DNA of 64,000 bases from Escherichia coli (lineage in GTDB: Bacteria; Pseudomonadota; Gammaproteobacteria; Enterobacterales; Enterobacteriaceae): NCBI RefSeq assembly GCF_013315695.1, contig NZ_CP054353.1; one strand, 5' to 3'. This document shows positions 1 through 11,571 of the stretch, one piece after another. The notes below the pieces were generated by a model. The model was not told the origin of the DNA. It was given only the letters and a program-made list of their open reading frames with translations, and made no database searches. Both the position numbers and the translations under genes were made by a program. Each line of letters starts with the position of its first letter. Position 1 is the first letter of the stretch.

Positions 1-285
1 TCATACTTCAGAACACATACTCAATGTGTAAACAGCCATCTCTCCATCGGGATTAGAAGGGCGTAATACAAATATCGGTATACTGCCATTGTCAATGTAT
101 GTGGCTGCAACCCCTCCGTCAGGTGTAGCATACAAATCAAGTCCTTCACAAAACTCTTTTGCCGTAACCTTTTTAAGATGGTCAGCATATTTGATCATCT
201 GGAGGTGCATTTCCATCGTTTGGCTATTTCGTGGTGCGCTGCTAATGGCTTGCTTAATGTTCTCGTAGATCTGGGTTTCTGTCAT
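1..285 (-). CDS. Hypothetical protein, 94 aa, complete (stop at 1..3); not recognised
   Basis: Complete ORF in six-frame track; no motif I can assign. It is not the rcnR that I recall next to thiM in K-12 (wrong strand and sequence). Confidence 0.4.
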   Translation of the reverse strand: MTETQIYENIKQAISSAPRNSQTMEMHLQMIKYADHLKKVTAKEFCEGLDLYATPDGGVAATYIDNGSIPIFVLRPSNPDGEMAVYTLSMCSEV

Positions 286-317
286 TGTTTATCCCACCTA
301 TCAAATTTAGAAAAATA

Positions 318-339
318 ATATTAATTAGCTAATTAATAT
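318..339. promoter_or_regulatory. 22-bp perfect palindrome ATATTAATTAGCTAATTAATAT, candidate operator
   Basis: Read directly: sequence equals its own reverse complement over 22 bp; AT-rich, 33 bp upstream of the minus-strand ORF start at 285. Confidence 0.4.
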
Positions 340-497
340 AATCAATGGTTTTCACCATCTGAATGATAGTCGCTAATTGTTTCTTTTTCATTCCTTCTAT
401 GGGGTACAAAATGGGGTACACAGAGAAGAAGCAATTAATGGAGGCGAGCTTGCATCTGCAAGCCACTTCCCCTAAGCTGGCACAAAATATAGAGATT

Positions 498-631
498 CAA
501 CCAAACGACTCGGGGTGCCCTTCTGCGTGAAGGCTGAGAAATACCCGTATCACCTGATCTGGATAATGCCAGCGTAGGGAAGTCACGGACCACCAGGTCA
601 TTGCTTCTTCACGTTATGGCAGGAGCAAACT
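498..631 (+). promoter_or_regulatory. TPP (thiamine pyrophosphate) riboswitch, thi-box leader of thiM
   Basis: Conserved thi-box core CTGAGA...ACCTGATCTGGATAATGCCAGCGTAGGGAA immediately upstream of thiM start with RBS GGAG; matches the known thiM riboswitch from memory. Confidence 0.85.
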
Positions 632-1420
632 ATGCAAGTCGACCTGCTGAGTTCCGCGCAATCTGCGCACGCGTTACATCTTTTTCACAAACATTCCCCC
701 CTTGTGCACTGTATGACCAATGATGTGGTGCAAACCTTTACTGCCAATACCTTACTGGCGCTCGGTGCATCGCCAGCGATGGTCATCGAAACCGAAGAGG
801 CCAGTCAGTTTGCGGCAATCGCCAGTGCGTTGCTGATTAACGTTGGCACGCTGACGCAGCCACGCGCACAGGCGATGCGTGCCGCCGTTGAACAGGCAAA
901 ACGCTCTCAAACACCCTGGACGCTTGATCCAGTAGCGGTGGGTGCACTCGATTATCGCCGCCGTTTTTGTCTGGAACTTCTGTCTCATAAGCCAACCGCC
1001 ATACGTGGTAATGCTTCGGAAATCATGGCATTAGCTGGCGTTGCTAATGGCGGACGGGGAGTGGATACCACTGATGCCGCAGCTAACGCGATACCTGCTG
1101 CACAAACACTGGCACGGGAAACTGGCGCAATCGTCGTGGTCACTGGCGAGGTGGATTATGTTACCGATGGACATCGTATCGTTGGCATTCACGGTGGCGA
1201 TCCGCTAATGACCAAAGTGGTAGGAACTGGCTGTGCATTATCGGCGGTTGTCGCTGCCTGTTGTGCGCTACCAGGCGATACGCTGGAAAATATCGCATCT
1301 GCCTGTCACTGGATGAAACAAGCCGGAGAACGCGCAGTTGCCAGAAGCGAGGGGCCAGGCAGTTTTGTTCCACATTTCCTTGATGCGCTCTGGCAATTGA
1401 CGCAGGAGGTGCAGGCATGA
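632..1420 (+). CDS. thiM: Hydroxyethylthiazole kinase
   Basis: 262-aa ORF recognised as ThiM; preceded by TPP riboswitch; stop overlaps thiD start (ATGA). Confidence 0.9.
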
Positions 1421-2217
1421 AACGAATTAACGCTCTGACGATTGCCGGTACTGATCCGAGTGGTGGTGCGGGGATTCAGGCCGATCTTAAAACCTTCTCG
1501 GCACTTGGCGCTTATGGTTGCTCAGTTATTACTGCACTGGTGGCGCAAAATACCCGTGGCGTACAGTCGGTGTATCGCATTGAGCCTGATTTTGTCGCCG
1601 CCCAGCTCGATTCGGTGTTCAGTGATGTGCGAATCGACACCACTAAAATCGGTATGTTGGCGGAAACCGATATTGTTGAAGCGGTGGCAGAACGGTTGCA
1701 ACGTTATCAGATCCAAAACGTGGTACTCGACACCGTTATGCTGGCAAAAAGCGGCGACCCGCTGCTTTCACCTTCGGCGGTTGCTACGCTGCGCAGTCGA
1801 TTATTGCCACATGTTTCATTAATAACGCCAAACTTGCCCGAAGCAGCCGCCTTGCTCGACGCGCCACACGCGCGCACCGAACAGGAAATGCTGGAACAAG
1901 GGCGATCGCTGTTGGCGATGGGCTGTGGCGCAGTGCTAATGAAAGGTGGTCATCTGGATGATGAGCAAAGCCCGGACTGGCTGTTTACTCGTGAGGGGGA
2001 ACAACGGTTTACCGCACCGCGCATTATGACCAAAAACACTCACGGCACTGGTTGTACGCTCTCTGCGGCGTTGGCTGCACTGCGCCCGCGCCATACAAAC
2101 TGGGCTGACACCGTACAGGAGGCAAAAAGCTGGCTTTCATCGGCGTTAGCCCAGGCCGACACGCTGGAAGTTGGTCACGGTATTGGTCCGGTTCACCACT
2201 TCCACGCCTGGTGGTGA
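1417..2217 (+). CDS. thiD: Hydroxymethylpyrimidine/phosphomethylpyrimidine kinase
   Basis: 266-aa ORF recognised as ThiD (PfkB-like kinase); translationally coupled to thiM. Confidence 0.9.

Positions 2218-9371: not shown

Positions 9372-11571
<2,200 letters not shown>

What the first reader, a model, noticed from the sequence alone, without database searches (positions are those of the whole stretch)
399..420. Direct repeat ATGGGGTACA x2 between the unknown ORF and the thiM riboswitch
Two identical 10-mers at 399..408 and 411..420, 12 bp apart centre to centre, lie in the 350-bp divergent intergenic region. Such tandem direct repeats can be binding sites for response regulators or other regulators; the TPP riboswitch does not explain them.
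Basis: seen in the sequence. Interest (0 to 1): 0.25.

Follow-up and report, generated by a model that had tools for sequence, protein, structure and literature searches.

The report
Integrase arm sites beside thiM riboswitch
The two identical 10-mers are most likely docking sites for the integrase of a small mobile island that inserts into the thiamine (TPP) riboswitch in front of thiM and replaces the gene's promoter and the front half of the riboswitch with its own copies.

Summary
In detail: ATGGGGTACA occurs at 399-408 and 411-420, with no other copy in the window. On its own it is weak evidence, because 64 kb of random sequence yields about one such repeat.

Comparison with other genomes changes the picture. 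Window 1-497 is not E. coli core DNA. It is the right end of an integrative island found in about 10% of complete E. coli genomes. The island's tyrosine integrase sits at the other end, beside a duplicated 82-bp piece of the thiM TPP riboswitch (window 498-579).

The decamer is one unit of a 12-bp-period tandem motif, nTGrGGTACA, present in 1 to 3 copies while the flanking sequence diverges. The same motif recurs in the same orientation on the other arm, overlapping the integrase start codon. It changes in step with integrase subfamily (GGTACA, GACACA, TCACACA). Relatives with about 30% identity that insert into the RNase P RNA gene show the same layout.

The integrase is predicted to have an N-terminal domain folded like the arm-binding domains of the lambda and HPI integrases. 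My best reading is arm-type integrase sites in attR (confidence about 0.7). A host response-regulator site is unlikely.

Arm sites themselves are ordinary. A riboswitch serving as the attachment site appears to be undescribed.

The parts
399..408 (+). Repeat unit 1 (ATGGGGTACA): proposed arm-type integrase-binding site in the P arm of attR
   Evidence: Aligned with unit 1 of the 3-unit arrays in L008, L011, L014, L020 and L031.
411..420 (+). Repeat unit 2 (ATGGGGTACA): proposed arm-type site. It corresponds to unit 3 of the 3-unit arrays; the middle unit CTGAGGTACAAG is missing in this lineage.
   Evidence: Alignments. O157:H7 keeps only this unit (L007).
286..497 (.). Island-derived right arm (P arm of attR). 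Absent from K-12 and about 90% of E. coli, where rcnR and the native thiM promoter lie here.
   Evidence: Most genomes match the window only from base 498 onward. K-12 lineage locus L004. The arm is present in 570 of 5426 genomes.
498..579 (+). 82-bp identity block duplicated at both island ends (att core region). Here it is the island-supplied 5' part of the TPP aptamer.
   Evidence: Both copies read in L001. L011 and other loci carry a diverged island-type P1/P3 in this copy. The block ends at ...GCGTAGGG.
567..579 (.). Inferred zone of strand exchange (TGCCAGCGTAGGG), at the 3' end of the identity block
   Evidence: Inference only. attL and attR differ as far right as the P5 loop in L013 and as far as about window 552 in L028. 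The exact crossover is not determined.
501..597 (+). TPP riboswitch aptamer of thiM, chimeric: 5' part from the island, 3' part native
   Evidence: Rfam RF00059, 71.2 bits, full length.
450..478 (+). Putative island-borne sigma-70 promoter for thiMD: TTGCAT (450-455), 17-bp spacer, TAAGCT (473-478)
   Evidence: Read from the sequence. TTGC and TAAnCT are invariant in all group A arms and in the fossil arms. It falls below the threshold of the promoter scanner. The native promoter is separated from thiM by the island. This is an inference.
448..463 (.). Conserved palindrome GCTTGCA-TC-TGCAAGC with a variable centre, overlapping the putative -35; function unknown
   Evidence: Alignments: the stem is constant and the centre varies (ATCT, AAGA, GCCA, TTCA, GTCA, ACCA).
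1..285 (-). Island gene for an HTH_73 (PF24718) protein, with its C-terminal part replaced (94 aa against 79 aa in the intact form)
   Evidence: Pfam E 1.1e-17 but only profile positions 1-50 of 71. Annotated as a pseudogene in MS 21-1.
632..2217 (+). thiM (632-1420) and thiD (1417-2217), the operon whose leader is the island's target
   Evidence: ORFs; annotation of homologous loci; ThiM is 100% identical to that of MS 21-1 and AF3.

Best explanation
Window 1-497 is the right end of a small integrative island of about 3-13 kb. The island inserts by tyrosine-recombinase site-specific recombination into the DNA that encodes the thiM TPP riboswitch aptamer. It carries its own promoter and its own copy of the first ~80 nt of the aptamer, so after insertion thiMD is read from island DNA through a chimeric riboswitch. 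The native promoter and the native 5' aptamer half are left in front of the integrase gene at the other end.

The two decamers are units of a 12-bp-period array of arm-type sites. I propose that the integrase's N-terminal domain binds them, together with matching sites that overlap its own start codon on the other arm. This would bridge arm and core DNA and assemble the recombination complex, and probably also autoregulate int.

Shown here: the island boundaries, the duplicated core, the motif architecture, its covariation with integrase lineage, and the predicted fold of the integrase N-terminus. Inferred: physical binding by Int, a requirement for recombination, the promoter, and the exact crossover point. 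In this lineage the array has lost its middle unit and the int-proximal copies are degenerate, so the sites may be weakened.
For: 1. Island anatomy. In 5424 of 5426 E. coli genomes something matches the window, but nearly all match only from base 498. MS 21-1, AF3, KSC1031, 504211 and ECZP248 have the order rcnR, native PthiM, riboswitch copy, int (435 aa), cargo, HTH_73 gene, repeats, riboswitch, thiM. The 82-bp duplicated block was read directly.

2. Unit-wise conservation. The motif nTGrGGTACA at a 12-bp period is kept in arms that are only 69-93% identical overall. Copy number is 1, 2 or 3, differing by exact 12-bp units.

3. Both arms carry the motif. In L011, TTGAGGTACA and TTGGGGTACA (the latter is the int start codon) lie 61 and 85 bp past the core, in the same orientation as the three far-arm copies. 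Of 8 hits to TGGGGTACA with at most one mismatch in 17 kb on both strands, 5 are in the two arms.

4. Covariation across 21 enterobacterial relatives, all sitting next to a TPP riboswitch 5' part. Where int starts ATGGGGTACA, the far arm has GGTACA units. Where it starts ATGGGACACA, the far arm has GTGGGTCACA/GTGAGACACA/CTGGGACACA. Where it starts ATGGCACACA, the far arm has CTGTCACACA units. The 9-mer at the int start predicts three phased far-arm copies in 9 of 13 islands, a 13-fold enrichment.

5. Independent replicate. Relatives at about 30% identity lie next to RNase P RNA. Their int starts inside ATGGTACAnAAACTGGTACA. The only other TGGTACA pair in each 21-kb locus is a second 12-bp tandem at the far end, beside an rnpB fragment.

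7. Int is the only protein shared by all islands that show this architecture.

8. In old island remnants that lack a cognate int, the repeats have decayed while the promoter-proximal ~75 bp is conserved.

9. Precedent: the arm-type P' sites of KplE1 IntS overlap the intS promoter and mediate autoregulation (PMC2951348).
Against: There is no binding or recombination experiment.

In the window's own island type the int-proximal copies are degenerate (TTAAGGTACA, AAGGGGTCGT, ATGAGGTCAA). The int-start 9-mer does not find the far-arm copies there, so covariation is weakest exactly where it matters most.

E. coli B keeps three perfect units without any integrase. That could mean recent decay, or a second function.

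No attP junction (excised or tandem form) was found in metagenome or viral contigs.

The integrase itself lies outside the window, so its presence in the source genome is inferred from 100% ThiM identity and a 100% identical arm in MS 21-1, AF3 and MSB1_4I.
Confidence: 0.7

Rival explanations
1. The repeats began as arm-type sites but are now vestigial in this lineage. They are relics of a decaying island and no longer support recombination or regulation.
For: The window has 2 units where canonical islands have 3, and O157:H7 has 1. The int-proximal copies of this island type are degenerate. The neighbouring HTH_73 gene is truncated or a pseudogene. The MS 21-1-type island is only 2.9 kb. Remnants without int are common: 570 genomes carry the arm, 225 carry int.
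Against: The two units are perfect 10/10 copies. The L001-type integrase ORF is intact at 435 aa, and the same protein (WP_001257775.1) is annotated in L001, L006 and L009. Identical 2-unit arms occur in several unrelated strains.
Confidence: 0.18
2. The repeats bind another island-encoded DNA-binding protein. This could be a recombination directionality factor (Xis, Cox or TorI-like) or the adjacent HTH_73 protein, controlling excision direction and the divergent promoters.
For: RDFs typically bind tandem direct repeats on one arm and can also repress int (PMC2951348). The repeats start 8 bp upstream of a promoter-like site for the HTH_73 gene (-35 at 391-386). HTH_73 is kept in many remnants that lack int.
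Against: The repeats persist in L003, L013, L031 and all group B islands, which lack HTH_73; there a terminator directly precedes them. No Xis- or AlpA-type family was found among the small island ORFs. Minimal islands share only Int. The motif tracks the int start codon across 30%-identity relatives.
Confidence: 0.07
3. The repeats are a binding site for a host regulator, such as an OmpR/PhoB-type response regulator, that controls thiM or the divergent ORF.
For: Tandem direct repeats about one helical turn apart are typical of response-regulator boxes. The repeats lie 30 bp upstream of the putative -35 for thiM, a position suited to an activator. The group B2 units CTGTCACACA resemble Pho-box half sites (from memory).
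Against: The DNA is island-borne, not native. The motif differs between island subfamilies in front of the same host operon. It recurs at int start codons. There is no other copy in 64 kb. The period is 12 bp, not 10-11. The repeats decay in old remnants although the promoter-proximal part stays conserved.
Confidence: 0.03
4. The repeat is a chance duplication or replication-slippage product with no function. Alternatively, the units are iterons for the island's replication-initiator-like protein.
For: Ten-mer repeats at short offsets occur by chance about once per 64 kb. Some islands encode a replication-initiator-like HTH protein 0.5-1 kb away (phrog_270).
Against: Motif, phase and position are conserved across genera and across 30%-identity integrase relatives. 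Islands without the initiator-like gene (L001, L033, L037) keep the repeats. Typical iterons, at 17-22 bp, are longer than these 10-bp units (from memory).
Confidence: 0.02

Closest known systems
Arm-type sites of heterobivalent tyrosine integrases (lambda Int P1/P2/P'1-3; P2 Int TGTGGACA direct repeats; KplE1 IntS P' sites; Yersinia HPI Int)
   Same: Short motif, unlike the core sequence, in tandem direct copies on both arms of attP within about 200 bp of the core. The integrase has a three-strand-plus-helix N-terminal domain joined by a flexible linker. Sites overlap the start of the int gene, as in KplE1, where this gives negative autoregulation (PMC2951348).
   Different: The period is 12 bp. 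All copies are in one orientation on both arms. In many relatives the units run into the int coding sequence and encode its first residues (MVQKLVQ, MLHKLLHK). The N-terminal domain belongs to Pfam DUF6538, which has no assigned function. Details of the lambda and P2 sites are from memory. No binding data exist here.
Genomic islands and prophages that integrate into tRNA or tmRNA genes (P4-like, HPI, KplE1 and others)
   Same: A tyrosine integrase sits next to a structured-RNA gene. A segment of the target is duplicated at both ends. The element carries a replacement copy so the target stays intact. Empty sites exist in sister strains. Distant relatives of this integrase use rnpB in the classical 3'-end manner.
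   Different: The target is a cis-regulatory riboswitch aptamer in an mRNA leader, not a stable RNA gene. The element replaces the 5' part and must also bring a promoter. I found no description of this in the paper library.
SXT/R391 integration into the 5' end of prfC
   Same: Integration at the 5' end of an operon, with the element supplying a new promoter and a new 5' segment so the target gene remains expressed (from memory; not checked in a paper).
   Different: SXT replaces protein-coding sequence. Here the replaced part is the ligand-sensing RNA aptamer. The islands are 3-13 kb and carry defence-type cargo; no conjugation genes appear in their annotation.
The 'rcnR-thiM' island listed by Hochhauser et al. 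2023 (PMC10121019, supplementary table)
   Same: Same chromosomal position and same kind of cargo: an island of about 8 kb with a type IV restriction system, matching the GmrSD island in KSC1031.
   Different: That catalogue gives the mobile-element type as 'None'. It does not mention the riboswitch target, the integrase specificity or the arm repeats.

Membership tests
Arm-type integrase-binding sites (lambda/P2/HPI type) | Lie in the arms of attP/attL/attR, outside the core, within about 200 bp of it | tested here: met
   Window repeats are 78-99 bp left of the 82-bp identity block and 159-180 bp from its right end. Island boundaries were defined by comparison with empty sites and by the duplicated block.
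Arm-type integrase-binding sites (lambda/P2/HPI type) | Several copies of one short motif on both arms, different from the core sequence | tested here: met
   Canonical islands have 3 copies on the far arm and 2 on the int-proximal arm. In the window's own island type the int-proximal copies are degenerate.
Arm-type integrase-binding sites (lambda/P2/HPI type) | The motif co-evolves with the cognate integrase rather than with the host | tested here: met
   GGTACA, GACACA and TCACACA units track integrase subgroups in front of the same thiM target. The rnpB-targeting 30%-identity relatives keep TGGTACA tandems on both arms.
Arm-type integrase-binding sites (lambda/P2/HPI type) | The integrase has a separate N-terminal arm-binding domain | tested here: met
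Arm-type integrase-binding sites (lambda/P2/HPI type) | Bound by the integrase and required for integrative or excisive recombination | not testable with these tools
   Needs gel shift or footprinting and recombination assays.
Integrative island with an att site in a structured-RNA locus | Integrase next to the target; target segment duplicated at both ends; empty site in relatives; target restored | tested here: met
   Both riboswitch copies are recognised by Rfam in L014 and by the genome annotation. thiM follows attR in eight other genera.
Integrative island with an att site in a structured-RNA locus | Evidence of current mobility (attP circle, or identical element in different hosts) | tested here: inconclusive
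   No attP junction was found in metagenome or viral contigs. However, the HTH_73 protein (tblastn, 79 aa) is 100% identical between Enterobacter chuandaensis L014 and E. coli L008/L011, and their right-arm DNA is near-identical in the alignment. That points to recent transfer.
Response-regulator (OmpR/PhoB-type) direct-repeat box | Motif fixed for a given host regulator and shared by other promoters of its regulon | tested here: not met
   There is no other copy in the 64-kb window. The motif varies with island subfamily in front of the same operon. Only this window, not the whole genome, could be scanned.
Recombination directionality factor (Xis/Cox/TorI) sites | A cognate small DNA-binding RDF encoded by the element | tested here: inconclusive
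   No Xis/AlpA/HTH_17-type hit reached Pfam's cut-off among the small ORFs. HTH_73 is absent from many islands that have the repeats. Minimal islands share only Int. Unrecognised RDFs cannot be excluded.

The most novel reading that the evidence does not exclude
The decamers mark a previously undescribed family of mobile islands whose DUF6538-type tyrosine integrases use DNA encoding structured RNA as their attachment site. In Enterobacterales the target is the ligand-binding aptamer of the thiM TPP riboswitch; in marine gammaproteobacteria it is RNase P RNA. The riboswitch-targeting islands rewire the locus. thiMD becomes dependent on an island promoter and a chimeric aptamer. The integrase is placed behind the native thiM promoter and a truncated aptamer. 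The 12-bp arm-site arrays could then let Int couple recombination to control of both its own gene and the island-borne thiM promoter.
Probability: 0.45. Interest if true: 0.72.

Novelty: new variant of a known kind. Interest (0 to 1): 0.55.

Why it matters
If correct, a riboswitch aptamer joins tRNA, tmRNA and a few protein genes as a dedicated landing site for mobile elements. Roughly one E. coli genome in ten, including O157:H7 and the laboratory B/BL21 lineage, would then express thiMD from foreign promoter DNA through a half-foreign riboswitch.

The result also gives the integrase-only defence islands at rcnR-thiM a mechanism. Those islands were catalogued without an assigned mobile-element type.

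It proposes a function, arm-site binding, for Pfam DUF6538.

It offers a compact set of parts (integrase, 12-bp arm units and an ~80-bp core) that could be tested as a site-specific integration tool.

For annotation, it explains the duplicated TPP riboswitch calls in these genomes.

Tried and rejected
- **Decamer elsewhere in the window:** none found, so enrichment could not be used.
- **Promoter and terminator scan of 250-650:** no plus-strand promoter reached the tool's threshold, so the thiM promoter proposal rests on conservation only.
- **Pfam, NCBIfam and PHROGs on the integrase:** only the catalytic domain or a generic 'integrase' label; no named arm-binding domain for the query itself.
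- **Pfam on small island ORFs, looking for an excisionase:** nothing convincing.
- **Literature searches:** combinations of thiM, rcnR, riboswitch, attB, integrase and rnpB found no description of this system.
- **Search for an attP junction:** the pattern for right arm, core and left arm gave no match in metagenome or viral contigs.
- **Plasmid and phage collections:** only mislabelled chromosomal fragments, or nothing.
- **ORF 363-530 as an explanation:** rejected. It would translate the repeats as MGYKMGYT, but its upstream part is not conserved.
- **Sigma-54 promoter at TGGCAC (479-484):** rejected, because there is no GC element at -12.
- **Core-type inverted repeats around the crossover:** I could not define them convincingly and left them open.

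Full report
**1. The observation**

The sequence reads ...ttcttctATGGGGTACAaaATGGGGTACAcagag... The two identical decamers are at 399-408 and 411-420. No further copy exists in the 64-kb window, even with one mismatch.

The repeat lies in the 346-bp gap between a minus-strand ORF (1-285) and thiM (632-1420). It is about 80 bp upstream of the TPP riboswitch, which Rfam places at 501-597 (71.2 bits).

The repeat is not statistically remarkable within the window. There are seven exact direct repeats of at least 10 bases at offsets of 10-30 bp. Random Markov-1 sequences of the same length give 1.2 on average, and 24 of 30 have at least one. Whether it means anything had to be settled by comparison with other genomes.

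**2. The region is the end of a mobile island, not a native regulatory region**

A megablast of window 1-640 against 5426 complete E. coli genomes matched almost all of them, but only from base 498 onward. In the K-12 lineage the DNA left of that point is rcnR plus the native thiM promoter, TTTACA-N17-TACCAT.

In strain MS 21-1, whose right arm is 100% identical to the window and whose ThiM is 100% identical, the gene order is as follows:
- rcnR and the native thiM promoter
- a first TPP riboswitch copy
- a 435-aa tyrosine integrase
- an HNH endonuclease
- a truncated HTH-like gene
- the sequence of window 286-497, including the repeat
- a second riboswitch copy, then thiM

Reading both junctions shows an 82-bp block (window 498-579, caaccaaacgactcgggg...ccagcgtaggg) present at both ends. 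This is the signature of site-specific integration into the riboswitch aptamer.

Larger versions of the island (8-13 kb) carry varied cargo between the same two ends. The cargo includes GmrSD type IV restriction, an AIPR protein, serine recombinases and a replication-initiator-like protein.

The right arm is present in 570 of 5426 genomes. These include int-less remnants in O157:H7 Sakai and in E. coli B REL606/BL21. The integrase gene is present in 225 genomes.

The position appears as 'rcnR-thiM', with a type IV restriction system and no assigned element type, in a supplementary table of Hochhauser et al. 2023. I found no paper describing the riboswitch as the target.

**3. The island brings its own riboswitch half and, by inference, a promoter**

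In ECZP248 and in several other genera, the thiM-proximal riboswitch copy has a different P1 5' strand. Its P3 stem also differs with compensatory changes (CCCATCAATGATGGG against CCCTTCTGCGTGAAGG). The int-proximal copy has the host's version. The 5' part of the working thiM riboswitch is therefore island DNA, and Rfam still scores it as a complete aptamer.

Differences between the two copies extend as far right as about window 552 (L028) and the P5 loop (L013). This places strand exchange in the last part of the block, roughly 567-579. That is an inference, not a mapped crossover.

The native promoter is now several kb away and points into int, so thiMD must be transcribed from the island arm. 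The best candidate is TTGCAT (450-455), N17, TAAGCT (473-478). Its TTGC and TAAnCT positions are invariant in all arms. It is below the threshold of the promoter scanner.

**4. What the decamers are**

I aligned right arms from ten E. coli island variants (69-100% identical to the window) and five other genera.
- The decamer is one unit of the motif nTGrGGTACA, repeated with a strict 12-bp period.
- Canonical islands have three units (ATGGGGTACAaaCTGAGGTACAagRTGGGGTACA).
- The window type has two, exactly the three-unit array minus its middle unit.
- O157:H7 has one.
- The surrounding sequence diverges freely.

The same motif occurs at the other end of the island in the same orientation. In ECZP248 this is TTGAGGTACA and TTGGGGTACA, 61 and 85 bp beyond the core, and the second is the integrase start codon. 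Of eight matches to TGGGGTACA with at most one mismatch in 17 kb on both strands, five are in the two arms.

**5. Covariation**

A scan of one genome per species found 21 enterobacterial relatives of the integrase (64-84% identity, 15 genera). Every one lies about 85 bp downstream of the 5' part of a TPP riboswitch. Where the far end was captured, thiM follows it.

The relatives fall into subgroups, and the repeat motif changes with the subgroup on both arms together:

| Int gene starts | Far-arm units |
|---|---|
| ATGGGGTACA | GGTACA units |
| ATGGGACACA | GTGGGTCACA, GTGAGACACA, CTGGGACACA |
| ATGGCACACA | CTGTCACACA, CTGTCACTCA, CTGTCACACA |

In the third group a TGTCACTCG is also found in the int-proximal arm.

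Across 13 islands I used the nine bases after the first base of the int start codon as a probe. It recovered three phased far-arm copies in nine islands. That is 28 hits in 1950 nt of arm against 619 in 578,656 nt of background, about 13-fold. Period, copy number and distance from the riboswitch stay the same.

A host transcription factor would not change its site with the island. An island protein common to all of them would.

**6. An independent replicate in distant relatives**

Relatives with about 30% identity, from marine gammaproteobacteria, lie 60-95 bp downstream of a complete RNase P RNA gene. Their int ORFs begin inside ATGGTACAnAAACTGGTACA.

In L037, L040 and L041 the only other TGGTACA pair in the 21-kb locus is a second tandem. 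It is 12 bp apart, on the same strand, 3-8 kb downstream, and directly beside a partial second copy of rnpB.

Many integrases of this clade start MVQKLVQ, MLHKLLHK or MPHKLPHKMPH. These read as translations of 12-bp repeats. The architecture therefore belongs to the integrase clade, whatever the target.

**7. The integrase looks able to bind arms**

AlphaFold2 with a 46-sequence alignment gave a confident model (pLDDT 90). The N-terminal domain has three strands and a helix (9-55) plus a second helix. A disordered linker (80-98) follows, then core-binding and catalytic domains.

Unrelated folds score similarly, so this is supportive rather than decisive. Twenty-one of 28 N-termini in the clade hit Pfam DUF6538, best E 1.7e-14. 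The query itself scores only E 0.056.

**8. Rivals**

*The neighbouring HTH_73 protein or an excisionase.* The repeats are kept in islands without HTH_73 (L003, L013, L031, all of group B), where a terminator directly precedes them. No excisionase family was detected. Minimal 3-kb islands share only the integrase.

It is also contradicted by what happens in old remnants. Upstream of newer insertions in Erwinia, Mangrovibacter, Silvania and Enterobacter lie older right arms. Their promoter-proximal 75 bp is conserved but their repeats have decayed. This suggests the repeats serve the island, not thiM expression.

*Vestigial sites.* The most serious caveat is that in this particular lineage the sites may be relics. 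One unit is lost, the int-proximal copies are degenerate, and the adjacent gene is damaged.

*Open points.* E. coli B keeps three perfect units without int, which is unexplained unless the decay is recent. No excised attP form was found in public contigs.

**9. Comparison with what is known**

Functionally this is the classical arm-site arrangement of lambda, P2, HPI and KplE1 integrases. It includes sites overlapping the start of int, which in KplE1 give negative autoregulation (PMC2951348).

The differences are:
- the 12-bp period
- the single orientation
- the extension of the units into the int coding sequence
- the DUF6538 N-terminal domain
- above all, the target

Integration into tRNA and tmRNA genes is textbook. 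Supplying a new 5' end and promoter is known from SXT at prfC (from memory). A riboswitch aptamer as attachment site, with a chimeric aptamer as the product, is something I could not find described.

**10. Verdict**

My best explanation is arm-type integrase sites in attR of a riboswitch-targeting island, with confidence about 0.7. The repeats themselves are an ordinary kind of element. The system they reveal is a new variant of a known kind and is moderately interesting (0.55).

Noticed in passing
window 498-579; L001 3598-3679 and 6526-6607: The thiM TPP riboswitch aptamer is the attachment site of an integrative island. 82 bp are duplicated at both island ends, and the working riboswitch is a chimera of island 5' part and host 3' part. 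In some islands (L011, L014) the island half has a different P3 stem with compensatory changes.
   Followed up: yes
L001 3540-3770 (attL); same in L005, L009, L011: After integration, the native thiM promoter and the native 5' aptamer part, now lacking the P1 3' strand and expression platform, point directly into the integrase gene. Genome annotation calls this a second TPP riboswitch. Whether int expression responds to thiamine is unknown.
   Followed up: partly
L036-L050, e.g. L040 9536-9906 and 17312-17330; L037 13128-13342: Integrase relatives at about 30% identity in marine gammaproteobacteria are integrated at the 3' end of the RNase P RNA gene (rnpB). They have the same 12-bp tandem TGGTACA pairs at the int start and at the far island end.
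   Followed up: partly
alignment A2 (integrase N-termini); L036 9968, L041 9971: Many integrases of this clade begin MVQKLVQ, MLHKLLHK or MPHKLPHKMPH. Their first codons read as translations of the 12-bp tandem DNA repeats, so the binding sites and the start of the coding sequence overlap.
   Followed up: partly
window 448-463: Palindrome GCTTGCA-TC-TGCAAGC overlapping the putative -35 of the island-borne thiM promoter. The stem is invariant in all arms and fossil arms while the central bases vary. Function unknown.
   Followed up: no
window 1-285 (minus strand): The ORF next to the repeats is an HTH_73 (PF24718) gene whose C-terminal third has been replaced. It matches profile positions 1-50 of 71 and is 94 aa against 79 aa. 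MS 21-1 has the same gene with a 27-bp insertion, annotated as a pseudogene.
   Followed up: partly
L015 about 9690-9840; L033, L019 and L014 upstream of attL: In several genera the riboswitch copy into which the present island inserted is itself preceded by an older, decayed island right arm: terminator, degenerate repeats, conserved promoter part. This implies serial integrations at the same site and fixation of island promoter DNA in front of thiM.
   Followed up: partly
L019 10001-18413: The Silvania hatchlandensis island combines a group A-type integrase (frameshifted) and int-proximal arm with a group B-type far arm (CTGGGACACAagCTGGCACACA). It is a hybrid or the result of recombination between islands.
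   Followed up: no
L005 12895-14466; L011 5941-6912; L001 5198-5923: Island cargo is dominated by defence-type genes: GmrSD type IV restriction, an AIPR family protein and HNH endonucleases. The rcnR-thiM position is listed with RM_type_IV and element type 'None' in Hochhauser et al. 2023 (PMC10121019, supplement).
   Followed up: partly
window 19552, 27397, 43620, 46379, 52530, 55219: Six other exact direct repeats of at least 10 bases at offsets of 15-29 bp occur in the window, more than the roughly 1.2 expected by chance. I did not examine them.
   Followed up: no
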